This document shows positions 1,582 through 64,000 of a stretch of 64,000 nucleotides of DNA, one piece after another (position 1 is the stretch's first letter; each line of letters opens with the position of its first letter). The DNA is from Hydrolagus colliei (Eukaryota), in assembly GCA_035084275.1 (NCBI GenBank), contig CM068744.1:17360001-17424000 (forward strand). The letters are read 5' to 3'. The notes under the pieces are model-generated. The model was not told the DNA's origin. It made no database searches and saw nothing but the letters and a program-made list of their open reading frames with translations. The position numbers were made by a program, and so were the translations under genes.

Positions 1582-2165
1582 AAACAACAACAACTTTGAT
1601 TTATATAGCGCCTTCCATGCCGGACGGCATCTCAGAGAACTTTACAGTAGCAGATCCCGGGATTGAGCCAGGGGCAGGGGGCAGAAAGGTGACCAAAAGC
1701 GCGGTCGAAAAGAAAGGTCTTCAGCTGTGACCTGAAACTGGGAAGAGAGGGGATGAGGTGAAGGGAGTGAGTAAGGGAGTTCCAGAGCCTCGGGGCGCAG
1801 TGGCTGAAGGCACGGCCGCCAAGGGTGGAGCGAAGGATTCGGGGGACATGGAGGAGGCCAGACCCAGAGGAGCGAAGGCCGCGGGTGCTGGGTTGGGGGG
1901 AGAGGAGATCAGAGAGATAGGGGCATGCGGAGGAGTGGAGGGATTTGAAAACAATGGTGAGGATCTTGAAAACGATCCTCTCGGAAATAGGGAGCCAGTG
2001 AAGTCTGGTGAGGACTGGGGTAATGAGAGAGCGAAGCTTGGAGCTGGTGAGTATGCAGGCGGCAGGGTTTAGCTGGATTAGCTGGATTTTGTGGATTGTG
2101 GTGGAGGGGAGACCGGAGAGGAGGGAGTTGCAATAATCCAGCTGAGAGGTGACAAAGGCTTTTGG
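1582..2165 (-). mobile_element. L2 LINE 3' fragment (subfamily B, young)
   Basis: ORF 1632-2183 reads [14 protein letters not shown]...[15 protein letters not shown]...APRLWNSL, typical of the L2 ORF2 C-terminus; (CAA)n tail. Confidence 0.93.
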
Positions 2166-5670: not shown

Positions 5671-7394
5671 TCATATCAATCATGTCTGCATCCATGGTCT
5701 ACAAAATTGCTCCTTCCAGGAGGGTTTTCAGTGATCAGGATCAGAACAACAATAAATTTACATTGGTGTAGCATCTTTCACATCAAGAAGTCCCAAGACG
5801 CTGGGAATACTACAGAAAGAAAATATTGCTGTTTTTTCTCTTCTTAATGTAGTATGCTGAGGCCAAATATAGTGTCCCTAATACTCCTAGGTATTTTGGT
5901 TCAGCTACGCACAAGAGAAATTCATTTAATCATCATGAGAACATGAAAGTTATTTATGATTTTCTCGATTTTACAAAATACAAAATGTAGTTTGTTGTAG
6001 TTATATATAAACAAAGAATCTAGCAGCTTCTGTAGCCATCAGCTGATTGCATTTGTGCTGTCCAATACAAAATAGTCATGCAGGCAAAAGTAAGGGAACC
6101 ATTATACTAATATTACAATAATTTACTGTAGAATTACTCAGCCCCAGGCTATCATTATTCACCGCAGGCTACTTTGCCATTGAAAAATACGTGGACAGCT
6201 AATTCTCTAAAGCAGGGGTTCTCAAGCTTTGTCACAGTGAGCTTCCATAAGCTGAGAAAACAAGTGTGCCTCCCACGGTTCACGATTACAGCAGGAAGAA
6301 CTGAAAATCCTATACTCCACAAGAATATAACCAACAAAGTAGAAGGACTCCTATCAATACAGTTACAATAAGAGTATCAACATTAAAAGCACCAATTCTA
6401 CATCACAAAGCATTCTTCGTGCTGTCCTACAGCGCTAACCTAAAGAGCACAAATCATAGCAGCCAAAACAAAACTGTACAAACATTCCAGGAAATCACAA
6501 CATCAAACCAGTGCAGACCATGTCAGTGCTATATAAATCAGTCCCAGCCAATAAGTGGGAGGAGTCTTCTTGCTGTACAAAATAGTGGAATTTGGTGTTG
6601 TGGTGAAGAAAAAAATGTTTGGCTGCCACGGAGAGCACTATCGCTGGGCCTGGCCTGGCCATTGGGAGAAGTATAGGATGACCATCGTTTTCCAACCAAA
6701 TCCGAGTTCATATATAATAAAAATTGAACTCTCCATAATTTCTGATGCTGGCTTTACCGGAGAAGTTTGTTGGATTAATGGCTGTATTTCTCTTATGAAT
6801 GGATCTGATTTTTTTTAAATTGTTCCTGCTCAGTTTATTGTTGAACTAAAGACAGGGCAGATTTGACCAGGGACACAATACCTCATCCAGGGATTGTCCC
6901 CCAGAAATCATTGATATATAATCACCCTGGAAGGGATGGCCATTGTGGGAAATACTGGCGTGGGGCACTGTCACTGGTGGAACTTCCAGGATGTGAGGCC
7001 AGGATGTGAGGCCAGCCCTGTAAAACTTGGGTCTGTTGGGACACTCACAACTGATGTTTTCCCTTACAAATGCCCATTCCTCCCCCTTTAAGTTCTCACT
7101 TGAAACCTGCTTCTTTGACCACTCTGATTCTTTGACCACCTCCACCTTCCCTTCTCTACCTGTCCCTTACTCAGCATCCAATAGTACTGCAATGGTGCAG
7201 TACTATTGCACCATTGAAGGACAATACCAACTGAGCAGGATAGGATAAATAAAACGATACAAAATCAGAATTCATTGCCAACTGATAATTAGCTGGTCTT
7301 ATAATTTTACACCATATACATAAAGGTGGTGAATTGTGAGATTGAATGAATATTGCATTTTGTTCTATTCACCTCACCATAAGGGTGCTGCCCA

Positions 7395-7790: not shown

Positions 7791-8074
7791 GGTCTGGTGT
7801 AGGTGTCTATGTGTTTCTATTCCCAGTACCTCCCACCCCCACCCCCACCGACCGCCCATTAATGTATATCTCACAAGCTTAATATCTTGCATTTTTTTTT
7901 AAAAAAAGAAAGACCCTCATCATGTTACCTGCCTCAAAATAAAACTCAGGGAAGTTTTAGCTAAATTTGATACATATGTGGTTTGTTTCTGAAGCAGGAT
8001 AATATTAAATTTGTTTGGATTGGCTTCTTTCTATACTTGTTGCTGCATTGCACTGGACATACAGTCTGTAAGTT

Positions 8075-8174
8075 CAGTTCTGATGAAGGGTCTGCTCCCG
8101 AAACGTGGACTCACTTTTCCTTCTCCATAGATGCTGCCTGACCTGCGGAATGTTCCCAGTGATTTCTGTTTTTG
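8075..8174 (+). mobile_element. Penelope-like terminal remnant with minimal hammerhead ribozyme motif
   Basis: AGTT-CTGATGA-A-GGG(tctgct)CCC-GAAA-CGTG-GACT followed by gatgctgcctgacctg...; near-identical copy at 63786. Confidence 0.7.
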
Positions 8175-9869
8175 ATACAGTCTGTACTTTGCTGCAATGG
8201 TGCTTTGGAGAGAGTGGGAAAATAACATGTAACACATATGCCTGAAATTGTCCTGCTTTGGGTAATTTAACTCCCTGGTTACCAATAATTATAATAGCTT
8301 GGTTGCTTTGGTGGTAACCCTGCTTTTAGCATCCCTACAAATTTCTATTTTCCACAGTGAATTAAGCATATCAGTGATACATGCTGCACAAAACTAAAAC
8401 ATTAATTAAAACAATTAAATCCTCAATTAATAGGATGTGGCCCAGGCAACTATCAACAATAACAAAATTACATTTATAGAGCGCCTTTCACATTTGGAGG
8501 ACGTCCCAAGTCACTGTTGGGCGAACCTGAAAGCTAACCTGAAATTATCTTGAAAAATAATGGTCTGCTTAACATGTTGGACGTCATATTTGACATGTGA
8601 TTTAATGCTGCACAGTCTGTTATTCATTTCATGGTGAAATGAATTACTGGGCAGAAATTCGCGGTGCCTAAAAGACAACAGCCACTGACAGGATCAGGTA
8701 ATCATGAGCCAAAAAAATCACTGTGCATTATTACTCTGTAATACTGTCTGTCAAGCGCTTTGGGGCATCCTCCTGATGTGAAAGGTGCTCTAGAAATATA
8801 ATTATATTGTTGTTGTTGTTGAAAGGCACTATACAAATGTAATTTTATTGTTGTTGTTGTTATTTCCAAAGCTGAAAGCATAATTGATGCTGCAGTAAAT
8901 GGATGGATTACAGTAGTTTCACCTGAAGGGCTGGTTGAAAAAGAGTGAATCAGAATAAAACTTAAAATTTTAAAATCTAGCTGCTCATGATAGTTTTTTT
9001 CTTCTGGTGACAGCTGAATATTGCCCAATTGTCACAGGCTATGTAACACAATATTCGATTTGCGTGAAATATATACAGTCTATGCACTTTACAGTAAATT
9101 CTCAGTCAGAACTGATCCTGATTTTACATTGTAAACTCAATGACCTAAAATACAGATGTCATATTTAGCACTTAAAACGAGGGGGTAGATAACACATTAT
9201 ATTCTTGAACTCTCCCTGTTAATACAAATATTTATGGTGGGAAGTGAATGAGGGTGTACTGAAAGAAGATAAAAACAATTTTTGACATTGATGTAATAAT
9301 CGAGTGTAATTGAAATTACACTCGAATTATGAAACTGTAGATACTGCCATGACTAAAACCATGGGCTCTCTCATTGCCTTCAAAATAATGAATGATTGAG
9401 CTAGAGATATATCAAATGCAAATATCTATTTACACACCATCTTCCAGTATTTATAAAGGATACATCTCTCTACAGGAAGGCAGAAGAACTTGTACCCACA
9501 ATATGGTCATGGGATTGGAAATTAATGTAAATGAAAATTCAATGCGCTGTCATAATGTGAACTTGGAAAGACCCCGGACTGTAATTCTAACACTAAACTT
9601 CCGAAATAATGAAAAATAGCAAACTTGTTATTAAAACAGTAAATCTTGAAGTATAAAATTAAACAGCTTGTATTTTTATCATGTTTATGTTGCTTTCTCT
9701 GTTCTCATTTGAATGGGCATTTGAATGGCATGTTGTGGGCTAAATTCTTTCCTTATATTATCCATCCTACACGTAACTTTATTCTCTGAAAACTTTCATT
9801 GTAAAACTGAAAGCAATCTTAAGTTTATTTCCTAAAACAGCAGAAATTAGGTTAGTTGATAATTGCATC

Positions 9870-11786: not shown

Positions 11787-12564
11787 TAGGGTCCGGCTAT
11801 ATATCAATATATCACTAAAACCCAATATAATTTTCATATCGATACGCCGATATAGACATTTTTAAAATATCGATATATCGAAAAAACGATATATCGAGGT
11901 AAAAAATCGGGATGCGAGCACACTGAACTACAAGACCCAGAATGCTCATCTCTATACACAATGCACATACCGAGGTGCAAAGCCGCCATATTGTGTTCAC
12001 AGTCCTCAAATACAATATACAGGTATGCAAGGGGTGGGGGGTGAGAGAGATGGCTGGGGGTGGGGGGGGGGTGAGGGGGAGAGAGACTGCTGGGGGGTGG
12101 TGAGGGGGAGAGAGACGGCTGGGGGGAGGGGGAGAGAAATGGCTGGGTGGAGGGGGAGAGAGATGGCTGGGGGGAGGGGGAGAGAGATGGCTGGGGGGGG
12201 GGGGGAGAGGGGGAGAGAGACGGCTGGGGGGAGGGGGAGAGAGACGGCTGGGGGGAGGGGGAGAGAGACGGCTGGGGGGAGGGAGAGAGAGGAAGAGAGA
12301 CACAGAGACACACAGACAGAAAAATACAGAGATGGAGAGAGTGAGAGACACAGAGAGAGAAAGATATTTACCTCCTGAGAAGATGGGCCCCGATTGCGCG
12401 CACACCCTGAATGCGCGCGCACCCGGGATGCGCGTGCACTCCGAATGCGTGCGCCGCGCACGCATGCGCATTACGAAAAAATTGAAAATATCGATATTTC
12501 GGTATATCTCGATATGAGCCCATCGATATATTTAATCGGAAAATTTCCATATCGACGGATCCTA
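11787..12564. mobile_element. Non-autonomous hAT DNA transposon (778 bp)
   Basis: TIRs TAGGGTCCG / CGGATCCTA; perfect 8-bp TSD CTATATAG (11779-11786, 12565-12572); subterminal ATATCG/CGATAT arrays. Confidence 0.92.
12030..12362 (+). repeat. G-rich ~24-bp minisatellite and GA tract inside the hAT element
   Basis: About 10 units of GGCTGGGGGGAGGGGGAGAGAGA(C/T). Confidence 0.92.
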
Positions 12565-15635: not shown

Positions 15636-16821
15636 CAGGCAGACTCCGCTTACCGAATGCCCGATTACCGAAACTTCACTATAACGAGGGTTTCTATTTG
15701 TACAATTTCTCCGCTTAACAAAGGCTGCATTCGCTATAACGAACGTTTACACACACTTTAAATCTCGCGGGCTTCTCGTGCGCAGCTTCTTATGCGCAGC
15801 TTCTCTCTGGTTGCCCCAGCAATGCACTCAGTCTTTAGTGTGCCTCAGTTAAGCAGTGCAGTGCAGTCCCTCCCATATGGGAGGAGCTTAAGCGGCAGGA
15901 TGCTTTGTGGCTTCAATAATAGTAAGTCGAGATAGGGAGGAGGGGATAGAGAGATAGAGAGGAGGGGGAGATAGAGAGAAAGGGGGGCGATAGAGGGGAG
16001 GGGAGATAGAGGGGAGGGGGGATAGAGAGGAGGCGGGATAGAGAGATAGAAAGGATGAGGGGGATAGAGAGCAGGTTGGGATAGAGAGATTGGGGAGGGG
16101 GGAATAGAGAGGGAGGGGAGGAGGGATAGAGAGGAGTGGGGGATAAAGAGATAGAGAGGAGTGGGGAAATAGAGAGGGAGGGGAGGAGATGGGGGATAGA
16201 GAGATAGAGAGGAGAGGGGATGGAGAGATAGAGAGGAGGGGATAGAGAGATAGACAGGAGGACGGGATAGAGAGGGAGAGGAGGGGGTAATAGAGAGGGA
16301 GGGGAGGTAGAGAGATAGAGATGGAGGGGGTGATAGAGAGATAGAGAGGAGAGGGGGGTAGAGAGATAGAGAGAGGGTGGGGGGGGGGGGGGTAGAGAGG
16401 AGGGGGTGGGGGGGGTAGAGAGATAGAGAGAGTGTGGGGAGGGTAGAGAGAAAGAAAGGAGGGAGAGGAAGAAAGAAGCACGTCATGAGTCCGGAAATGC
16501 CTGGGCCCAGGTTGCGATATTTCAGTGAAGTGACTGTGAAGACCTGGCCTAAAGAAGGTAGGATTGGCGTTTTTATTCCTGCAGTTTTTGTCACATTCCA
16601 GATTCCGGAACTCCGGACTTTTGGCTGCTCAACCTGTACACCGAAAATATTAGCACTAGGAGCCGCTAGGAACTAAACTGATTTTAGAGGGGAGGTTCGG
16701 GTCGGGGCGGCGTTTTGGCTGCGGCCAAATATAGTAATACAGTTAAACTCTCGCTTAACAAAATGTTCGTTTAATGAAAGGTTTTAAAGTTCCTAACCCT
16801 TCATTAAGCGGGGTCTACTTG
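15636..16821. mobile_element. Tigger/pogo-like non-autonomous DNA transposon (about 1.19 kb, composite)
   Basis: TA|CAGGCAGACTCCGCTTACCGAA ... TTCATTAAGCGGGGTCTACTTG|TA imperfect ~22-bp TIRs with TA TSD. Confidence 0.8.
15927..16478 (+). repeat. Polypurine (GGGGGATAGAGAGATAGAGAGGA-like) tract
   Basis: About 550 bp almost entirely G/A; source of the spurious Pro/Leu/Ser-rich ORFs. Confidence 0.93.
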
Positions 16822-22684: not shown

Positions 22685-24510
22685 ATAGATTCATAGATTC
22701 ATAGAATTTTACGGCACAAAAGGAGGCCATTCGGCCCATCTAGTCTGTGCCGGCTCTTTGAAAAGAGCGATTCAATCCCACTGCCCTGCCCGCTCCCCAT
22801 AGCCTAATAGACCTGTTCTCCCTAAATAAAGATCTAATTCCCTTTTAAAAGTTGTTATCGAGTCAGCCTCCACCACCTTTTCAGGCAATGCATTCCAGAT
22901 TCGAACAACTCGCTGAGTGAAAAAATTTCTCCTCAGCTCCCCTCTACTTCGCCTTGAAACTATTTTAAATCTGTGACCACGAGTCACAGATTCGCCCACG
23001 AGTGGAAATAATTTTTCTCTATTTGCCCTGTCGAAACCCCTCATGATTTTATAAACCTCTATTAGGTCTCCCCTCAATCTTCTCTGCTCCAGAGAGAATA
23101 ACCCTAGCCTATCTAGCCTCTCCTCATAGCTGAAGTCCCTCAATCCTGGCACCATCCTAGTAAATCTTCGTTGTACCCTTTCCAATGCCTTCACATCCTT
23201 TCTGTAGTGTGGTGACCAGAATTGAACACAGTATTCCAGCTGAGACCTCACCAAAGTCTTATAGAGATTAGTCAGCACTTCCTGACTTTTGTACTCTATA
23301 CCCCTATTTATAAAGCCTAGTATCCCATATGCCTTCTTAACAGCCTTGTCTACCTGTCCTGCCACCTTCAACGAGTCACTAACACAAATCCCCAGGTCTC
23401 TCTGTTCCTTCACACCATTTAAAATTTTACTATCTAGCCTATATTGCCTCCCTTCATTTCTTCTCCCAAAATGCATCACCTCACACTTCTCTGCATTAAA
23501 CTTCATCTGCCATGTGTCTGCCCACTTTACCAATTTGTCTATATCCTCTTGCAGATGGCTACTATCCTCCTCACTATTTAGTATTCTCCCTAACTTAGTG
23601 TCATCTGCAAACTTGGAAACCGTACACCCAAGTCCAGATCATTGATGTAGATTACAAACAGCAATGGTCCCAAAACTGATCCCTGTGGCACACCACTGCT
23701 CACTTCCCTCCAGTCTGAAAAACAGCCGCTCACTACAACTCTCTGCTTTCTGTCTCGCAGCCAGTTGTAGATCCACGCTGCCACTGTCCCTTTTACGCCA
23801 TGGGCCTTTAATTTCCTAATAAGTCTCTCATATGGCACTTTGTCAAATGCCTTTTGAAAGTCCATGTAAACTACATCAACTGCGCTACCATTATCCACCC
23901 ATTCCGTTACCTCATCAAAAAATTCTATCAGATTTGTAAGGCAAGATTTGCCTTTAACAAATCCATGTTGACTGTCCTTTATTAGCCTATATCTTTCTAA
24001 GTGAAGATCTACCTTGTCCCTGATTATGGACTCTAGACGTTTGCCCACTACCGACGTTAGACTGACTGGTCTGTAGTTACCAGGCTTGTCCTTCTGCCCC
24101 TTTTTATACAAGGGAGTAACATTAGCTATCCTCCAGTCCTCTGGCACGACCCCTGTGTCCAAGGAAGATTGAAAGATCGTGGCCAGAGTCCCTGCAATTT
24201 GCTCCCGTGCCTCCCTTAGTAACCTAGGGTGCATCCCATCCGGACCAGGTGACTTATCCACCTTGAGCGACGTCAACCTTTTTAGCACTTCCTCTCTGGT
24301 TATAATTATTCTATCCATTTCTCCTACCCTCTCCTCCAATACCATGGCATTGGCTGTATCCTTTTCTTTTGTGAAGACAGAGGCGAAGTACTCATTCAGT
24401 ACATCAGCCATGCCCTCTGCCTCCACAATGAGATTTCCTCCTAGGTCCCTAATTGGCCCCACCCTATCCTTGACCAACCTTTTACTCTTAATATGTTGGT
24501 AAAAAACATT
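22685..24510 (-). mobile_element. Young 5'-truncated CR1 LINE (RT domain, one frameshift)
   Basis: [35 protein letters not shown]; frameshift near 23620 just before SKFADDTKL; (ATCTATGA)n-type tail; possible TSD TTAATAGA (22682-22689, 24513-24520). Confidence 0.96.
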
Positions 24511-24910
24511 GTTTAATAGAATCATTTTGTTTTACAACTATTGGCCGATTGTGTCTGTAATGACTATAAAAGATCTATTTCAGGGTGACCAATCTTTATG
24601 GTTGGCCAACAAAATACATTTTCCAGATTGAGTGAATATTTCCAAAATTGATGCCATAAATGAAGAAATATTCAATCAAGAACACACAGGAAACAAACCA
24701 GCACTTGAATATGGACTTACCAAGACTCATGAGAATGTTCGGGAGATCAGTTCTTGATGTCCACCACTGAACTATCTTCAGTATTTAACCCCTGCCATTT
24801 CCCCAAATTCATTTATATATTTTCAACTATTTGCCCAATTTCCTTTCAGGAACATAGAAATAGGATGAGGTCATTCAGCTCCTTGAGCCTGTTCTGCCGT
24901 TCTACTAGAT

Positions 24911-27318: not shown

Positions 27319-27712
27319 TAATAATGATAATAATCCTTGCATTTGATATAGCACTTTTCACATCTTCTAGATGTCTCAAAGTGCTTCACAGAATATACTG
27401 TTAAGTGAATTGACTGTATATATGTGGGCAAAACGTGTTGCCAATTGCACACAGCAGTGTCCCACAAACAGTCGTGGATTGAAATGACCAATTTATTATT
27501 GTTTAATTTTTGAGTAGGGTGATCAAAAATTAAACAAGGGTGCTTTGGGACGTCCTCCCAATGTGAAAGGCGCTCTATAAATGTAATTTTGTTGTTGTTG
27601 TTGCTGTAGGCGTGTGGAGTAAGGAAACTTGCCCAAAGTTTCACTTTGCCTGGAATTGAACCTAGGTCTCTTGCTTGTAAGGTGAGTGCTCTAACCACTG
27701 AGCTACAAGACT
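27319..27712 (-). mobile_element. Full tRNA SINE with an opposite-strand L2 tail inserted (about 27535-27603)
   Basis: Head TGTAGCTCAGTGGTTAGAGCAC...GGTTCAATTCC on the minus strand; (TTG)n insert. Confidence 0.88.
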
Positions 27713-29516: not shown

Positions 29517-30415
29517 GACAACAACAACTTTGATTTATATAGCGCCCTTCACGCCGGACGGCGTCTCAGAGCGCTTCACAATAGCGGATCCCGGCACCGA
29601 GCCAGGGGCAGGAATAGAAAGGTGACCAAAGACCAAACGTTGAAGAGAAAGGTCTTCAGCTGGGACCTGAAACTGAGAAAAGAGTGGGGCGAGGCGAAGG
29701 GAGTGAGGAAGGGAGTTCCAGAGCCTTGGGACTTAGTGGCTGAAGGTACGGCCGCCATGGGTGGAGCGGAGGATTCGGGGGACATGGAGGAGGCCAGACC
29801 CAGTGGAGTGAAGGCAACGGGAGCTTGTTTGAGGAGAGAGGTCAGTGGGGTGCAGAGGAGTGGAAGGATTTGAAGACAAGGGTGAGGATCTTGAAGTCAA
29901 CCCTCTCTGGAATAGGGAGCCAGTGAAGTCTGGCAAGGACTAGGGTAATGGGGGAGCGAAGTTTGGTATGGGTGAGTATGCGGGCGGCAGAGTTTTGGAT
30001 GAGTTCGATTTTATGTATTGTGGTGGAGGGGAGACCGGTGAGGAGGGCATTTGAATATCCCAGCCATGAGGTGATGAAGGCATGGACCAGAATTTCAGCG
30101 GCTTTTGGGGTGAGGTATTGCCGGAGACGGACGATCCGTTGGAGGTGGAAGAAGGCGTTGCTGGTGAGGGACCGGATGTGGGGGAGGAAGGACAGTTTGG
30201 GGTCGAACCTGACACTTAGGTTGCACACAGGTTTGGAGAGTTTTAGGGGCAGACCGGAAAGGTGAAGGAGGTGAGAGCCATGTGAATGGAGACGTTGATG
30301 AGAGCCAAAGGGTGGCCTCCGTCTTGTCAACATTCAGCTGCAAGAAATTTGCGCTCATCCAGCTCCTGATGTCTGACAGGCAGGCTGACAGAACATCAGC
30401 GACTGGGGGTCGCTG
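29517..30415 (-). mobile_element. L2 LINE 3' fragment (subfamily B, young)
   Basis: CLSDIRSWMSANFLQLNVDKTEA, LVHAFITS and LHWLPIPERVDFKIL motifs; (CAA)n tail. Confidence 0.94.
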
Positions 30416-30419
30416 ATGT

Positions 30420-31138
30420 TTATGGGACAAAATATAATGTATTGCGGATTATTTAATAATTGATGTAAAATTGGAGTCCTACCATTCAAAGTGAACCTTT
30501 CATGACAGGGTGTGATTGGCTGTGACTCTTTCCACTTGCCACACGGTGCTATTAGTGCTGACCCTCTCTTCCTCCATGGAAGTTCTGTACTACTGAACCA
30601 GCAAAAAAACACATATCTGTTCACACTTTAACCATTTGGCTCCAGACATTTCTCCCATTTGTATGTCACCATGTGTTACAGGAATCCTGTAGCTCAGTGG
30701 TTAAAGCACTTGCCTCACAAACAAGAGACCTGGGTTTGATTTCCAGCAGGGAGAAATGTTCAGCAAGTTCCTTACTCCACACGCCTCTGTTTACCTAGCA
30801 GTTAGTAGGAACATAGTCGTTAGTCATTTAGCGGATTGCTTTTCCGGGGGTAATAATTCCTTAAAAAACTAATAAATTGGTCACTGCAATCCACGACTGT
30901 TTGTGCCATACTGCTGTGTGCAATTGGCTGCCATGTTTCGCTCACAAAATATACAGTCAATTCATTTATAGTATATTCTGTGAAGCACTTTGAGGCTCAA
31001 AGACATAATAAGGTGTCATGTCAAATGCAAGGATTTCTATTATTATTACCATAGTTGTTGCAATATTATTATGGGACAAAATATAATGTATTGCGGATTA
31101 TTTAATAATTGATGTAAAATTTGAGTCCTACCATTCAA
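30420..31138 (+). repeat. 70-bp direct repeat pair (30420-30489 and 31069-31138)
   Basis: ttatgggacaaaatataatgtattgcggatta...gagtcctaccattcaa; one mismatch between copies. Confidence 0.95.
30680..31047 (+). mobile_element. tRNA SINE, long variant with an extra Meta-like segment
   Basis: A box TAGCTCAGTGG, B box GGTTTGATTTCC; extra ctgtttacctagcagttagtaggaac... segment (about 30786-30851) absent from sister copies. Confidence 0.85.
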
Positions 31139-32439: not shown

Positions 32440-32976
32440 TTATTATAATAAAAAGTATAAGAATCCTTCTCCCACACCAGGCTTCACGACCACATCACTC
32501 CCACCCTCGCCCGTCTCCACTGGCTCCCCATCACCCAGAGGATCGAATTCAAGATCCTTGTTCTCAGTTTCAAGGCCATTCACGGTCTTGCCCCCGTCTA
32601 TGTCTCTGACCTACTGTGTCCCTATCAGCCTGCCCGCATCCTCCGTTCAGCAGACTCAGGCCTGCTCTGCGTGCACCGCCCTAACAGCCCAACCATCGGC
32701 GGCCGGGCTTTCAGCCTCTCTGCTCCCACACTGTGGAATTCCATCCCGCAGCCCCTCCGCCTGGCTTCCTCCCTTTCCTCTTTCAAGGCCGATCTCAAGA
32801 TCTTCCTCTTCAACCGCGCCTTCGGCTACCCCACCAACTCTTCCCCTCTCCGATTCTCCTTCCCCTTCCCCCTACTCCGACCCTTCCCCCACCCCGCTCG
32901 ACCTGACTGTTCAGCACTTTGGGACATCCTCCAGACGTGAAAGGCGCTGTATAAGTGCAATTTTGTTGTTGTTGTT
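32440..32976 (+). mobile_element. L2 subfamily A 3' fragment with a shared AT-rich 5' junction
   Basis: HDHITPTLARLHWLPITQRIEFKIL frame; (TTG)n tail; same junction as the 43300 copy. Confidence 0.9.
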
Positions 32977-36794: not shown

Positions 36795-37713
36795 CCTCTG
36801 AGTCTCCACTTCGCTTTGCGACCCCCCCCAGTCCCCTGATGTTCTGTCAGCCTGCCTGTCAGACATCAGGAGCTGGATGAGCGCAAATTTCTTGCAGCTT
36901 AATGTTGACAAGACGAAGGCCATATTCTTTGGCTCTCATCAACGTTTCCATTCGCATGGCTCTCACCTCCTCCATCTTCCTGGTCTGCCCCTAAAACTCT
37001 CCGAACCTGTGCACAACCTAGGCGTCAGGTTCGACCCCCAACTGTCCTTATTCCCCCACATCTGGTCCCTCACCAGCACCGCCTTCTTCCGCCTCCAATG
37101 AATACCCATCTCTGGCAATACCTCACCCCAATAACCGCTGAAATCCTGGTCCACGCCTTTGTCACCTCACGGCTGGACTGTTCCAATGCCCTCCTCACCA
37201 GTCTCCCATCCACCACAATCCATAAAATCCAACTCATTCAAAACTCTGCCGCCCGCATACCAACCCGCACCAAACTTACCCCAGTACTTGCCAGACTTCA
37301 CTGGCTCCCTATTCCAGAGAGGGCTGACTTCAAGATCCTCACCCTTGTCCTCAAATCCCTCCACTCCTCTGCACCCCCCTACCTCTCTGATCTCCTCTTT
37401 CCTCAAACCAGCTCCCATTGCCTTCGCTCCATTGGGTCTGGCCTCCTCCATATCCTGATTCCTCCGCTCAACTCTCGGCGGCCTTGCCTTCAGCCACTAT
37501 GCCCCGAGGCTCTGGAATTGCCTTGCTCACTACCTTCGCTTAGCCCCCTCTTTTCTCAGCTTCAGGTCCCAGCTGAAGAGCTTTCTCTTCGACCACGCCT
37601 TTAGTCACCTTTCTCCCCCTGCCTCTGGATTGGTCCCGGGTTCTGCTATTGTGAAGAGCTCTGAGACGCCGTCCGGCATGGAGGCCGCTATATGAATCAA
37701 AGTTGTTATTGTT
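36795..37713 (+). mobile_element. L2 LINE 3' fragment (subfamily B)
   Basis: MSANFLQLNVDKTKA, HAFVTSRLDCSNALL and LHWLPIPER motifs; TTG tail; inverted relative to 29517-30415. Confidence 0.93.
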
Positions 37714-43299: not shown

Positions 43300-44253
43300 T
43301 AATTAAAAAATATAAGAATCCTTCTCCCGCACCACGCTCCACGACCACATCACTCCCACCCTCGCCCGTCTCTACTGGCTCCCCATCACCGAGAGGATCG
43401 AATTCAAGATTCTTGTTCTCACTTTCAAGGCCATTTACAGCCTTGCCTATCTCTCTGACCTACTGTCTACTTACCAATCTGCCCGCACCTTCCAACAACA
43501 ACGTCAATTTATATAGCGCCCTCCACGCCGGACGGTGTCTCAGAGCGCTTCAAAGTAGCTGATCCTGGGACCGAGCCAGGGGCAGGGGCAGGAAGGTGAC
43601 CAAAAGCTCGGTCGAAGAGAAAGGTCTTCAACTGTGACCTGAAACAGGGAAGAAAGGGGGCGAGGCAAAGCGAGTGAGGAAGGGAGTTCCAGAGCCTCAA
43701 AGCGTGGTGGCTAAAGGCACGGCCGCCGAGGGTGGAGCAGAAGACTCGGGGGACATGGAGGAGGCCAGACCCAGAGGAGTGAAGGCAGCGGGTGCTGGGT
43801 TGGGGGGAGAGGAGATCAGAGAGATAGGGGGGTGCAGAGGAGTGGAGGGTTTTGAAAACAAGGGTGAGGATCTTGAAGTCGATTCTCTCTGGGATAGGGA
43901 GCCAGTGAAGTCTGGCAAGGACTGGGGTAATGGGGGAGCGAAGCTTAGAGCGGGTGAGTATGCGGGCGGCAGAATTTTTTCGTTCAGCAGACTCAGGCCT
44001 GCTCCGCATCCACCGCCCTAACTGCCCAACCATCGGCGGCCGGGCTTTCAGCCTCTCTGCTCCCACACTGTGGAACTCCATCCTGCAGCCACTCCACCTT
44101 GCTGCCCCACAAACTCTTCCCCTCTCCCACTCTCCTTCCCCTTCCCCCTACCCTGACCCTCCCCCCACCCCGCTCAGTCCCGACCTGACTGTTCAGCGCT
44201 TTGTGATGGCCTCCCGACATGAAAGGAGCTGTATAAGTGCAACTTTGTTGTTG
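43300..44253 (+). mobile_element. L2 subfamily A 3' fragment split by a nested L2
   Basis: gcccgcaccttc...cgttcagcagactc is contiguous in the 32440 copy but interrupted here. Confidence 0.9.
43493..43980 (-). mobile_element. Nested L2 subfamily B 3' fragment
   Basis: NSAARILTRSKLRSPITPVLARLHWLPIPERIDFKIL; (CAA)n tail at 43493. Confidence 0.93.
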
Positions 44254-52069: not shown

Positions 52070-52295
52070 AGGACAGTCCTGTAGCTTAGTGGTTAGAGCA
52101 CTCGCCTTACAAGCGAGAGACCTGGGTTCAATTCAAGGCAGAGCGAAATGTTGGGCATCTTTCCTTATTCCTCATGCCTCGTAATAATCCCTCAAAAAAA
52201 TTTGGTATTTTCAATCGACAACTGGTTGTGGGATACTGCTGTGCACAATTGACTGCCGCGATTCACCCACAACTACAGTATATAGTCAATTCACC
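52070..52295 (+). mobile_element. tRNA SINE 5' two-thirds
   Basis: TGTAGCTTAGTGGTTAGAGCACTCGCC...GGTTCAATTC. Confidence 0.85.
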
Positions 52296-57995: not shown

Positions 57996-60900
57996 CTTGG
58001 CAACTGTAATATATTATCTTGAATCAAAGAGTCTGTGCTGAGTGACTCTTGTTCAATTGCTGGAATCATCCGACTGTTCGCATGACAGTTGGTAATATTC
58101 TAAAATCTGTTCATCAGTAAGTGTTTTATGTTGATCAGTGAATGCCCATGTATCACCCAGGCAGCCTGAACAGCATTGACAAGAGAGTGGGAGGTACAAT
58201 CCAGTGACATAGCTAGGAATGGAAATCTGTCCACCATAATTTGGTGCCCATTCATATTTCCATTCCCAGTTACACCACCATCTCAAACATTTAATGAATC
58301 AAGTGACATGGCAATAGAGGACAACTTGGTTACAGACTTACACATTCTAACATGGAATATAATACTGCCCATGAGTTCCTGGTCCCAGCAAGTTCATCCA
58401 GAGGAATTGTTGAGTAGAGGAACAATCTCCCTAAAGGACAAAGGGAAAAAGCAGAGTGTGAGTCAAACAGAACATAGATGTCCTCTTATTTAAAGATTGG
58501 TATACAACCATGAGGACCAGTGTAGATGGGAGAGGGAGATACTTCTGTTCCTAATTTCCTATGCTCCTAATTCAAATATGTAACTCAGTAAAATGGAAAC
58601 ATAGGTAATGTAGTCAAAAATAATTGCAATTGTGCAGAACAACTAGCACATCAATATAAATTTTGTTTCAGACTGGAATCATTAAGATGTCATTGGATAC
58701 TGTTTGCCAAATGTTATTTTAAAAGGAAAGGTATTGCCTGACCAGTGGCAGCTTTCAGTGCAGACTGTATTAATGAAGCTTTCTCTGTCAGTTCAGCACA
58801 GTCTGTTTAATAATTATTAGCAAAGACGAAATGGTTCAGTTACCAGCTGTTGGTGTGTTTTATCCTGCTTGTCTCCCTGCCTTGTTTGGTTATGAGTTTC
58901 AGTCGCCAGCTGACATTTAACTTGGCAACGATAGGATTTCATTATGAAGCACCAACGGCAAACTGAAATGGGACACAGCAGCTCTTTATATGATTGGATG
59001 ACCATTGTTCTTATTCACCCAATATTTCCAGTTAGACTGCTCTTTCCCGTTTCTAAATAGTGTTGGCTTTGCTGGCGCAAAAGTCTGCTGTGTTTGTTCA
59101 CAAATAATCTCTATACTTTGGCAGTAATTAACTGGGAAGCACTTCAGGATATTTTGACCTGATAAGGTGCTGTAAAAATGGCAGTTCTCCCTTGAAATAC
59201 AAATATTCTCTACTTTTTGGGTAGTACGTCTGACGCCAAATTCAATTATGCCCTGAAACCTATTCATTAAAATAAATACTGTATCATTCACTTCCTGGCT
59301 GCTTGTTGTGGATCAACAGCTATGTTCACCTACAAATATGAAATTACTACATTTAATTTTTAAAAATCTTCAAAGTGCTTTGAGATGTTTCAACATTATC
59401 GGCCCTATATCAAGTACAAGTGTTAGTGAAAATAAAATAGTGTTTTCCATTGACTTCTGGCTTGTGCAGTTCATTGTAGTGAACCATATCCTATTTTATC
59501 CATATGGGCCATATCATTATCTGACCTGTGTATTCACTGCTTGTATAATGACTTAAATGCCTTTTTTAATTTTTGAATACTCTGTTGTGCAGTAACAATG
59601 TTACTCTTTAAAGAGTAGTCTTTCTGGAAAACACACTAACGCCTATTGATAAACGCTGGTCACAAATTGCAATAGGATACAAGATTTTAGCCTGGAGAAA
59701 TCCGATTTACCTTTGCCTGATAGATAGCATGGATTCTCAATTGATGCTGAATGTGATGTTAGTTGTCAAACAGCAGAATTTGTAAAAAAATGAAAAAAGT
59801 TGCCCATCTTTTTAATTGTGCTTCAGGTCACTTCCCTCCTTCCTCCCCTCCTCCCCCACCAGCAAGGAATAGAATCACAGTCAGCTGCGTGCAGCACTTT
59901 GAGATGTAATTCCAGGTGAAAACACAATAAATGTATAAATGAAAATGATTGATTTACCACTTGTTCCAATACTCAGTGGTCGGGAGCTGTAAGGAGGCAA
60001 CTGGAAAATGTGCTACTGGATTAAATTGATCTGTATTATTAGCACAATATTACATTGATCTGTATCCATTCATACAGCCTATAAGATTATTCTCTACTTT
60101 TACCCAGGATTTCCAGTCTTCTTTATTACTTATGCCCTTATTCTTTCCTCTCTGACCCAAAATAGGGTACACTAATTAACCTGTTTGCTATTTTGCCCCC
60201 ATTCACTCCTTCTCACCTTAATCTCTGATCCATTAGGCCTCCCCACCCCCCTTGACCTGCTCCCTCTCCTCCACTCATGTATCACTACCCATTTTGTCTG
60301 TGCTTCCCTGTGTCCAGCCAAACTCACAGGTAACTGGTTTGCGCAGGTGGAACTCTACACCTAGTTTAGATATTGATGGGGTAGTGGACGAGGGCGGGGG
60401 TGGCTAATTTTGGACAGACACCCAGCTAACCAGACCAAAAAAAAGCACGATGTATTTAAATTCTGCCAGCTAGATTTGAACTGGGATTTCTTCTCTATCT
60501 CATTTTCCGTTTTGGCATAAGTGCTTCAGTTTACGCATTGCTGCACCTGCATTGTCCCTGAAGACACCCTTAACAAAGGGGTGTAGACATACTAACTCCA
60601 TAATACAATATTCCCCTCCAGAAAGCAGAGCAAATCTCTAGAGCAATTAAAGTGAAATATTTGAAACACAGATCAAACTGTGCCAATCCTGACAAGCAAA
60701 ACATCTGCCAAGAATGTTTGCATTGAAAGTTATTGCTGCAATTATAATTTTTTTTAGACATTGGCTTTTTGAACTTAACTCCTGTTCCTTGTAGCTTTAC
60801 AATCTGCAATGTGAAAATGTAGAACACAGTTCATCAAGTTTTAGTTGAACCTATCCACAGAAGTACACCGAATAGTTTTTTCCCTATCCACACTAGCCTA

Positions 60901-61039
60901 GCTTTCAGCAGACATTCTCTAAGTCTACTTTTAATTTTTATGCTTGGTTTTAGTTTCAGAATTGATTCATTCCCTATCCACCATTTGAATGCCTGAAATC
61001 ACAACACTGCATTTGGGCAAATCAGGATATTTTGTTCAG

Positions 61040-61448
61040 TTCAGTGCTGTGGGAGTGCTGCACTGTTGAAGGCATTATCCTTTGGAAAACATGTTAAACC
61101 ACAATGAACCAATTTACCTATTGAGGTGTTTAGGGAGGAGGGGTTTGCGCGGTTATGGGAGAGAGCTAGGGATTGGGATTAAATTGCTCTTTTTAAAGAG
61201 CCGGCACAGACTTGAGGGTCGAATGGCCTCCTTTTGTGCCGTAAGATTCTATGATTGTATGATAGGTAGGTGTACTATTCAAAAGTGAATAGACTTTTTC
61301 TCTCAATGACCTAGGTAATCCCCCAGATAAAATTGGTCACTCCCTTCATGCTTGTGAGACACAGTCATTACATATTGCAGTTACATCTTCTGAAGTGCTT
61401 TGAGACATCCTCCCACGTGAAAGATGTTATATTAAATGCAAGGATTCT
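61040..61448 (+). mobile_element. DeuSINE remnant interrupted by a CR1 3' end (about 61120-61263)
   Basis: gggagtgctgcactgttgaagg Deu motif; insert aaagagccggcacagact...gaatggcctccttttgtgccgta matches the 22690 CR1 tail. Confidence 0.75.
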
Positions 61449-63499
61449 GATGTTCCTGGTTCCTTCTATGTGGTAGCCATTAGCCAATCTTCCCATACAT
61501 GACTCAGACAATCACTGAACCCTTCCACACAGCTTTAGCATTACAAATGTGCAGAATATTTTATCATAAATTCTTTTAACTCAGTTTGTGAAAGCATGTC
61601 GAGAACAGGGCTACTTGTTAGTTTACTCCAACGTTACTTTTTTTTAAAAAAGTCACTGCAAACACTTTCTTTGAAATTAATTGGAGTTATTAACCAAATG
61701 GCTAAATTAAATTTGCATTCAGATCAAATATTGTTTTGATTAATATTAATTGATTAGTCTCTTCAAAGTTTTACTTTAAGTTAACGACAATAGGATGAAA
61801 GCACTTAGTTTTATACAATAATATTAACCTCTTACATTGAGATGAGTGGGTGGTGGCGAGTGTTACTACTGGCAGTAAATTCATAACCCTGAAGTGCATT
61901 CCTTTCTTTGATGTGCAGCACTTCTCTTAATAGTTTCTCTTAATAGTTATTGTAAGACATCTTAAAAAACACATGTACTTTTTACTGAATAGGTATAATA
62001 TCAATGTTCAAAAAACAATTGTGCCTGGTAACTGTTTATTACAAGCCTATGTCTATTTGCATTTTAAGAGTTAATATTTTGGTTAACTACTTTACTGGAA
62101 ATTGTCCAAAAGCAACTTTGGGATCTGAGAAAAGTTTCAAAATGCATCTCAACAAAATATCTAATCTGCTTTAAGCCTTACTCTCTCAGGGCAGACATTG
62201 ACTCCCTTTTGTTATCAATTTTGGGTGAAGTGCCAGTGAGATGGAGATAAAAATGTGAGAGGGACATTGTAACTTTTGAAGGAGAAGCATCTGGATTTGG
62301 TGTTGTTGTATACAAGTGTAATTGTGTTGTTGTTATTGTTGTCGCAATGAACTCTGCATTTCCCGATTTGCCTGAAAACCTAACCTACTTTTTGTGGCAG
62401 CCCAGTACATTTCCCCAATGGGCATTTTCTACTTTTTCATTTCTACAGACAACCGGTGAATCGTGGTGACTTGGGTACAGAATAAGCCTCCAAAGTTAAA
62501 GCTAACACCAATGAGACTGGTTGTATTGTACCTTTACTACTAGGATTTATTAGAACCAGTGATATTTTTGTTAAGCATTTCAAAATTAAGAAATCCTGTT
62601 ATAAAAATACAACAAAAACATAAAATATTTTGAAATAATCAGTACAATTAAACTGTATCATGCATCCCACTGACTCGCATCAGACGTGGTGGAGTTAGTG
62701 ACAGTGAAAGATAGGATAAGGGATATCTTCTCTGCGAGTCAATAAAATTATTGACATAAGCAGTGAACATATGTTACTCTCAGCTAGTAAATTCATTTAC
62801 AAAACATGACACTGTGCTTATGCAAAGCTGTTTATTGGTTTCAAAAAACAAAAGGAGTTATTCTGCTGTGTTGGGCACATATATTTATTTTCAAGGGGCG
62901 TTTTACTAAATAATTTGCTCTAATATGAGCTTTCAGCTGCGTTTTCAATGCACTCCTTGCAACCACCTCTCTCTCTAGCACCATTACATGATTGTTTAAG
63001 TACAGGTTCTTTACTAGAAAATAGTATACGTTATTCTGGCTTGCAATGGCCTCACACCGTTTCCTGAACATATTAATATTGGTGCAAACAGATTTGCAAA
63101 ACAATCCTGTTTTCCTTTCCTGCTGCATGGCATCAACTTTGCTGTCTTTTCCTGAACTGTTAAGCACTGAATGTGCTTTGCAACTTTCAAATACACACTT
63201 GTTTAGGTGTTATTTTTCATCACAAATTTCTTATGCTCATCAGAAAAACGTAGCACAAGGATAATGCAGCTGAAAATAGGTCCATAAACAGTGGCATCCA
63301 TAAACACATTCCGTTCCTTAAATAACGATCAGAATGTGGAGAACAGAATGTGTTGATGAAATGCCTTTTATGTTGCCGAATTCACCATTTAAAGGGGTCA
63401 AAAGTCATGCATTTCTAAACACATTTTCTTCCTTTAATTAAGGAACAAGGTTAACATGTGTTTTGAAATATCCCTTCACAATACCCAATTTCTGAAAAA

Positions 63500-63745
63500 A
63501 TGTATGTAGTGCCTTTCACATTGGACAGATGCCTCGAAGCCCATTTTACTGGGATCCCAGGCTGGTGCAGGTTGAGTGAAGTGTACAGGTACTTGCAAGC
63601 GCTGTTGAAAAGCTATGTCTTAAGGTCCTTTAGGACTTTAAAGTTGAGGAGGGAAGGGGCGAGGTGAACGGACTCTGTGGAGTTCCAGAGTGCATGGTAA
63701 AATGGCAGAAAGCTCACAAGATAGAGTAAGGAGGGACATGAAGCA
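63500..63745 (-). mobile_element. Old L2 3' fragment
   Basis: agtgcctttcaca tail motif; ggagttccagag and ggagggacatg motifs. Confidence 0.55.
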
Positions 63746-63785
63746 AACTAATGATTGTCAGCTGAGCAAAGGGAATAACCCATTG

Positions 63786-63893
63786 GAGTTCTGACGAAGG
63801 GTCGTGAACCCGAAACATTGACTCACTTTTCCTTTCTCCATAGATGCTGCCTGGCCTGCTGAGTGTACCCAGTGATTTCTGTTTTTTTTGTTT
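63786..63893 (+). mobile_element. Penelope-like terminal remnant with minimal hammerhead ribozyme motif
   Basis: GAGTT-CTGACGA-A-GGGT(cgtga)ACCC-GAAA-CATT-GACTC: stems I and II pair; homologous to 8075-8174. Confidence 0.72.
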
Positions 63894-64000
63894 CATGATA
63901 ACAACACCCAAATGCTTGGAAGTGCTATCTTAGTTTGCTACTCAGGGGACCTGTTTCCTAAGCTTGAATGGCATTTAATATGTTACTTTACAGGACATCA

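What the first reader, a model, noticed from the sequence alone, without database searches (positions are those of the whole stretch)
63786..63893. Minimal type I hammerhead ribozyme fold in a short dispersed repeat
Seen: stem I 5' GAGUU (63786-63790), core CUGACGA (63791-63797), an extra A, stem II GGGU/ACCC around loop CGUGA, GAAA (63812-63815), CAUU, then stem I 3' GACUC (63820-63824). Known: Penelope-like elements carry minimal hammerheads whose vestigial stem III is a palindrome such as AACGUU, thought to cleave as dimers, and an extra residue after A9 is tolerated. Inference: the ancestral motif was GAAACGUU and has CpG-decayed here to GAAACAUU, so this copy may be impaired. The ~105-bp unit appears to have moved without coding sequence.
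Basis: partly seen in the sequence, partly recalled or inferred. Interest (0 to 1): 0.7.

Follow-up and report, generated by a model that had tools for sequence, protein, structure and literature searches.

The report
Penelope retroelement stub with decayed hammerhead
This short repeat is the leftover end-piece of a decayed Penelope-type jumping gene and carries an already known tiny self-cutting RNA motif that is predicted to be broken in this copy; it is ordinary, apart from a hint that such stubs were likely copied from the uncut front end of the element's RNA.

Summary
The motif is at the stated coordinates and far beyond chance. It is the minimal type I hammerhead of a Penelope-like element (PLE) pseudo-LTR, a kind described in 2014. 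Long copies of the same repeat run upstream into GIY-YIG and RT remnants, and two run downstream into the ORF start. At least 1,802 copies exist. The family core is ACGU; this copy's ACAU is neutral CpG decay and is predicted to break the dimer helix. There is no covariation and the fifth stem I pair is flank. "Moved without coding sequence" needs correcting: the unit holds the likely first 16 codons and is a PLE integration product. Side result: 40 of 92 copies start at helix I's 5' arm and 0 of 92 at the cut site (about 2% genome-wide), with 3' ends in two classes 35 nt apart. These are likely run-off copies of uncut RNA. The scan has already noted this in other shark genomes. No cleavage or expression data. 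Low interest.

The parts
63787..63895 (+). Solo pseudo-LTR stub of a Penelope-like element: hammerhead plus likely ORF start, short 3' class without the 35-nt tail
   Evidence: 93% identical over 63787-63889 to a long copy; 45 matches from the 40 best-scored of 1,761 candidates in the genome; long copies joined to GIY-YIG/RT remnants
63787..63790 (+). Helix I 5' arm (AGUU) and the family's 5' boundary hot spot; G63786 before it is flank or an untemplated base
63791..63798 (+). Catalytic box CUGACGA (C3-A9) plus the extra A before helix II
   Evidence: matches the consensus NNN CUGANGAH G in PMC4209133 Fig. S3
63799..63811 (+). Helix II GGGU/ACCC with 5-nt loop CGUGA (family majority CGUGG; sister subfamily UGUAG)
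63812..63819 (+). GAAA box and vestigial helix III: A15.1-C15.2-A16.2-U16.1-U17, family ACGU palindrome decayed to ACAU; predicted cut between 63819 and 63820
63820..63823 (+). Helix I 3' arm (GACU)
63844..63891 (+). Likely first 16 codons of the PLE ORF (ATG at 63844)
   Evidence: In L278 this ATG frame continues without a break into the element's N-terminal coding region; L270 shows the same junction with a LINE insertion in it
8076..8180 (+). Second copy of the same stub in the window; keeps ACGU but has G at the cleavage position and a changed helix II

Best explanation
This is a solo pseudo-LTR stub of a decayed Penelope-like retrotransposon, carrying that element's minimal type I hammerhead, which is predicted to be inactive in this copy. 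In the parent element the unit sits both after the GIY-YIG domain and in front of the ORF (shown). The hammerhead has no helix III of its own and would cut only when two copies pair through the ACGU palindrome, probably with help from the element's protein (inferred from PMC4209133 and PMC11167929). The stub likely arose when the element's RT started at one of its two internal start sites about 100 or 135 nt downstream of the hammerhead and ran off the 5' end of an uncut transcript that begins at the first bases of helix I (inferred from copy ends). After insertion it decayed neutrally; one CpG change turned ACGU into ACAU (shown).
For: Linkage: upstream of the unit, long copies give Pfam GIY-YIG above cutoff (2 of 7 stretches tested); the RT stretch has 19 relatives at E<=1e-10, best 63-65% identical to ray and shark proteins, and the three relatives scanned carry RVT_1, one also GIY-YIG above cutoff; 8 of the 17 RT-selected regions show the ORF end followed about 300 nt later by the unit in the same orientation. 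Unit into ORF start: L278, L270. Ends in 92 copies picked only by a 31-mer downstream of the hammerhead: 5' ends 40 of 92 within 9 nt around helix I's 5' arm (10.5% per base against 1.1% inside the motif and 1.6% upstream), 0 of 92 at the cut site; 3' ends 44 and 36 of 92 in two classes about 35 nt apart, the PLE tail of PMC11167929 and PMC8557442. The 5' peak recurs in a sister subfamily (17 of 30). 18 of 40 short copies have an inverted piece of the unit directly upstream and 16 of 40 have a flanking duplication of 9 nt or more against 3.4% in shuffled pairs. Decay: all four CpGs, catalytic or not, are about 30% changed on each base.
Against: No cleavage assay and no RNA data. No intact ORF was seen among the long copies examined, so the parent is known only from broken copies. 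The window copy itself has no clear target-site duplication (longest shared word 5 nt). The transcript-start reading rests on copy ends alone; the test for an extra cap-derived G was weak and confounded by junction microhomology (14 of 29, p 0.018; 5 of 13, p 0.19). A small excess of copies does start at the cut site (14 against 5 at one control position, p 0.016). Rfam has no matching model hit.
Confidence: 0.82

Rival explanations
1. The stub is a separate non-autonomous, SINE-like or retrozyme-like element with its own master copy, mobilised in trans by the PLE protein.
For: Short copies outnumber long ones (74 against 48 among copies with an intact motif start) and have a sharp 5' end. Non-autonomous PLE derivatives with type I hammerheads are reported (bioRxiv 10.64898/2026.07.22.740005, abstract and introduction).
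Against: Short and long copies share the same sequence and the same two subfamilies; short copies share no upstream sequence of their own; pieces come as head-to-head inversions with varied break points, as PLE insertions do; no tandem arrays appeared among the fetched loci (not searched for separately).
Confidence: 0.12
2. The 5' hot spot marks a splice acceptor or an RT stop, not the transcript start: the unit follows a long pyrimidine tract ending in CAG, and in Drosophila Penelope an intron ends at helix I.
For: The upstream sequence looks like an acceptor; the bases before the junction in short copies are G 61, A 38, C 31 of 74 at -1, -2, -3, like an exon end (exon-end consensus recalled); PMC4209133 reports the Drosophila case.
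Against: No shared upstream exon among 130 short copies. The 5 copies joined to internal ORF sequence do not break at a GT donor. Inverted pieces often abut the junction directly, leaving no room for an exon. 48 of 122 copies read through the site.
Confidence: 0.25
3. This copy has been kept as a functional host ribozyme that cuts or regulates a host transcript.
For: All catalytic bases (C3, U4, G5, A6, G8, A9, G12, A13, A14) are intact in this copy, whereas only 7 of 63 sampled copies passed a full intactness test.
Against: The dimer palindrome is broken, the copy has about 7% divergence like its siblings, the fold is a minor state in context, the next copy is about 5 kb away in the opposite orientation (L213), and no host exon was identified.
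Confidence: 0.02

Closest known systems
Minimal hammerheads (min-HHR) in pLTRs of metazoan PLEs, Cervera and De la Pena 2014 (PMC4209133)
   Same: Type I order, CUGANGA plus one extra base, G-C first pair of helix II, GAAA, palindromic 15.2-16.2 with no loop 3, short helix I, mostly single dispersed motifs from truncated PLEs. The C-G-U-U core occurs in its Fig. S3 alignment (for example Tetraodon).
   Different: Helix II is 4 bp, at the short end of the published set. No shark entry was found in the two supplement files searched (file 1 not searchable). This copy has lost the palindrome, although a C-A-U-C core is listed for one coelacanth family.
Poseidon_Ac (PAc) of Anolis, Frangieh et al. 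2024 (PMC11167929)
   Same: Hammerhead in the pLTR at the ORF start; two internal RT start sites giving the 30-40 bp tail; uncut RNA as the main template; protein-assisted cleavage.
   Different: Here the likely ATG lies 24 nt after the cut site rather than inside helix II, and the ORF has a CX4CxxC linker before GIY-YIG (L037), which PMC8557442 gives for Neptune and Nematis and not for Poseidon. The family is decayed.
Non-LTR retrozymes (bioRxiv 10.64898/2026.07.22.740005; PMC7229834 seen as listing only)
   Same: Short, non-coding-sized, hammerhead-bearing, PLE-related, present in one cartilaginous fish genome.
   Different: Defined as tandem repeats with a hammerhead in each unit; this is a dispersed monomer continuous with PLE sequence.

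Membership tests
Metazoan PLE minimal hammerhead | CUGANGA and GAAA boxes flanking a helix II, one extra base after A9, G-C first pair | tested here: met
Metazoan PLE minimal hammerhead | Helix I of 2-5 bp closing the core | tested here: met
   4 bp AGUU/GACU; majority pair at all four positions in 82 copies
Metazoan PLE minimal hammerhead | Palindromic positions 15.2-16.2 (family level) | tested here: met
   CG is the commonest state, 31 of 82; TG 22 and CA 18 are its CpG products
Metazoan PLE minimal hammerhead | Palindromic positions 15.2-16.2 (this copy) | tested here: not met
   ACAU gives two C-A mismatches in a dimer; a decayed member
Metazoan PLE minimal hammerhead | Covariation in helices I and II | tested here: inconclusive
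   0-2 double changes per pair among 82 copies, as expected for neutral copies of one master; one-sided U-G to C-G change in 12 of 40 copies from sister-subfamily loci. Other species could not be searched.
Metazoan PLE minimal hammerhead | Self-cleavage as a dimer or with protein help | not testable with these tools
   Only an indirect hint: 14 copies start at the cut site against 5 at a control position
Penelope-like element (EN+) | One ORF with RT followed by C-terminal GIY-YIG endonuclease | tested here: met
   In long family copies, all broken. Not present at the window copy (no tblastn hit in the window plus 20 kb).
Penelope-like element (EN+) | Pseudo-LTR covering the 3' end and the ORF start; partial tandems and inverted 5' pieces | tested here: met
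Penelope-like element (EN+) | Optional 30-40 bp tail at the 3' end | tested here: met
   Two 3'-end classes, 44 and 36 of 92, only 2 between them
Neptune/Nematis clades | CX2-5CxxC linker before GIY-YIG | tested here: met
   CQRRRCNTC in L037; definition from PMC8557442 passages
Neptune/Nematis clades | Placement in an RT tree with reference elements | not tested
   No reference set was at hand
Non-LTR retrozyme | Tandem units each with a hammerhead | tested here: not met
   Single unit; other copies 55.7 kb upstream and about 5 kb downstream in the opposite orientation
Rfam hammerhead families | Covariance-model match | tested here: not met
   No hammerhead family at E<=10

The most novel reading that the evidence does not exclude
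The thousands of stubs are a fossil record of the PLE RNA in living cells: the transcript starts at the first bases of hammerhead helix I, most integrated cDNAs were made from uncut RNA, and a minority of about 2% from RNA cut at the hammerhead site. That would place the ribozyme at the very 5' end of the mRNA, acting as a late or protein-gated switch that removes the cap rather than as a processor of tandem precursors.
Probability: 0.4. Interest if true: 0.45.

Novelty: new member of a known kind. Interest (0 to 1): 0.15.

Why it matters
The motif itself adds one more genome to a known list and this copy is a decayed relic. The only wider point is that the job of PLE hammerheads is still open (PMC8557442 says so), and copy-end statistics give an in-vivo check of the in-vitro result that uncut RNA is the template. 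The scan's notes on other shark genomes already make this point.

Tried and rejected
Rfam scans: no hammerhead match. PDB sequence search with the RT stretch: nothing significant. Pfam on the RT fragments of the family itself: no RVT_1 hit on 5 RT-region stretches (one of them a part of another); RT identity rests on relatives. Look-up of earlier findings by sequence: none. Splicing to a PLE-internal donor: rejected for the 5 joined copies. Cap-derived extra G: inconclusive. Target-site duplication at the window copy: none found. Host gene: none recognised among 39 stop-free frames of 120 aa or more; short exons were not searched, so an intronic position is not excluded. Three regions picked for paired motifs (L245-L247) held no full element. 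Supplement term search of PMC11167929 found nothing; its Fig. S2, which may show PAc 5' ends, could not be seen.

Full report
Observation. A generic minimal-hammerhead descriptor found two sites in the 64 kb window, this one and one at 8076-8111; a tighter pattern gave 2 matches against 0.00 in 100 shuffles. The two are copies of one repeat (89% over 100 nt). Rfam gave no hammerhead match in 60000-64000 or in 63760-63900 at E<=10. The isolated 39-mer folds into helices I and II (z -0.57); in the 108-nt unit both helices have probability near 0.1, against 0.9 for helix II and 0.2 for helix I in the ACGU copy L002.

The repeat family. A genome search found 1,761 candidates, 40 scored. An exact 31-mer downstream of the motif occurs 1,802 times; 15 of 60 copies picked by motif-side words carry it exactly, giving roughly 7,200 copies, probably an underestimate. 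A loose hammerhead pattern gives 3,317 matches against 27 for the control and shows a sister subfamily with another loop II (1,249 exact matches) and, in part of it, a C-G in place of the U-G pair of helix I.

It is a Penelope-like element. Some copies extend upstream through about 300 nt of pyrimidine-rich sequence into a broken ORF. Two of 7 stretches tested match Pfam GIY-YIG above the cutoff; the RT stretches matched nothing themselves. The RT stretch has 19 relatives at E<=1e-10 among 130 candidates, the best at 63-65% from Hypanus, Chiloscyllium and Mobula, so the host is likely a cartilaginous fish (inference). The three relatives scanned carry RVT_1 and one carries GIY-YIG above cutoff. 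Of 20 regions, 17 were chosen for RT; in 8 of these (L252-L259) the ORF end is followed about 300 nt later by the unit in the same orientation. In L278 the unit reads straight on into the ORF's N-terminal region from the ATG that corresponds to window 63844; L270 shows the same junction interrupted by a LINE piece. So the unit is the pseudo-LTR, standing at both ends of the ORF, as in PAc (PMC11167929, parts 1-2 of 4 read) and in rotifer Penelopes, whose pLTR holds the first 12 codons (PMC3846280, passages). A CX4CxxC linker precedes GIY-YIG, pointing to Neptune or Nematis by the definition in PMC8557442 (passages); no tree was made. No intact ORF was seen in the long copies examined.

State of the ribozyme. 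The published minimal hammerhead has no helix III of its own and a palindrome at 15.2-16.2; monomers did not cut, dimers cut weakly (PMC4209133, parts 1-2 of 4 and supplement file 2 part 2 of 3 read). In this family the word with ACGT occurs 525 times and the word with ACAT 201 times. In 63 of 92 anchor-selected copies that reach the core (29 shorter ones dropped), the pentamer is ACGTT 26, ATGTT 13, ACATT 12, other 12. All four CpGs of the motif are changed in about 30% of copies per base, whether catalytic (G8, G12) or in loop II, which is neutral decay; 7 of 63 passed a full intactness test. Among 82 indel-free copies each helix I or II pair shows 0-2 double changes and 10-27 breaks: no covariation, as expected for dead copies of one master, so this neither supports nor refutes the fold. 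The window copy keeps all catalytic bases but would have two C-A mismatches in the four-pair dimer helix: predicted inactive. G63786 is not family sequence (C in 47 of 48 long copies).

How the stub arose. I took the first listed matches of the downstream 31-mer (30 loci and 60 fetched regions; 92 unique copies of 1,802, all on contig C1) and measured their ends against a real long copy. 5' ends: 6 before the cut site is reached, 0 at the cut site, 23 inside the motif, 40 within nine bases around helix I's 5' arm, 4 just beyond, 19 far beyond. The sister subfamily gives 17 of 30 in the corresponding zone. 3' ends: 44 and 36 in two classes about 35 nt apart, 2 between, 10 shorter. The two 3' classes are the PLE tail, which PMC11167929 ties to two internal RT start sites. 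18 of the 40 short copies have an inverted piece directly upstream and 16 have a flanking duplication of 9 nt or more (3.4% in shuffled pairs); the window copy has neither. The simplest reading, inferred and untested, is that RT starting in the 5' pLTR of an uncut transcript ran off its 5' end, which lies at helix I; the sequence there resembles an initiator (recalled consensus). A splice acceptor or RT stop is the rival: no shared exon or GT donor was found among 130 short copies, but it is not excluded. The cap-G test was inconclusive.

Cut-site test. Genome-wide here, 22 copies have two non-T bases before the 3' product; 14 of them lack the upstream motif. At a control position 2 nt downstream the figures are 10 and 5; 1,682 copies have the normal TT. 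That is about 1.7% after allowing for flanks that contain T, p 0.016 against one control, and not far above the 1.1% per base seen inside the motif. By eye two of the 22 are misclassified in opposite directions. I count this as a weak hint only.

Comparison and novelty. It works like, and at family level is, a metazoan PLE minimal hammerhead; this copy fails the palindrome test and is a decayed member. It is not a tandem retrozyme (bioRxiv 10.64898/2026.07.22.740005, part 1 of 5 and passages). Four literature searches listed no paper devoted to shark PLE hammerheads or to a 5'-end peak at helix I; the library lacks most subscription journals and Repbase, and PAc's Fig. S2 could not be seen. 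PMC2377424 (passages) places the Drosophila start in the pLTR, 46 nt before an intron. The scan holds 284 notes with the same key words in at least 27 genomes, and the 8 shown reach the same reading; I had noted the 5' peak before that look-up. Verdict: real, correctly recognised, known kind, decayed copy; interest 0.15.

Noticed in passing
window 22772-24531 (-): Frameshifted RT ORF fragment of a LINE, CR1-like by recalled appearance; Pfam RVT_1 E 1.7e-24.
   Followed up: partly
window 27641-27712 (-), 30683-30754 (+), 52076-52145 (+): Three ARAGORN tRNA-Val calls; two lie in inverted-repeat arms and they are probably heads of a tRNA-derived SINE.
   Followed up: no
window 1678-2159, 29686-30399, 32510-32820, 36836-37713, 43365-44106: Many fragments of one LINE 3' end, L2-like by recalled appearance, and of a short repeat ending in TTG runs.
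   Followed up: no
window 12030-12364 and 15918-16464: Purine-rich minisatellites with 24-nt and 8/16-nt periods.
   Followed up: no
L213:5332-5452 (-) and 5687-5757 (+): Further pieces of the same PLE unit about 5 kb beyond the window end.
   Followed up: partly
L285, L290, L291, L292, L288, L202: PLE-internal sequence joined directly to the hammerhead start, like template jumps at the 5' hot spot.
   Followed up: partly
L116/L117 and L266/L267/L268: Loci 99% identical over their compared length on different contigs or 180 kb apart: recent duplications or assembly duplicates.
   Followed up: no
L061, L089 and window 8066-8080: Short repeats of the unit's first bases at the 5' junction, perhaps RT slippage at the template end.
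   Followed up: no
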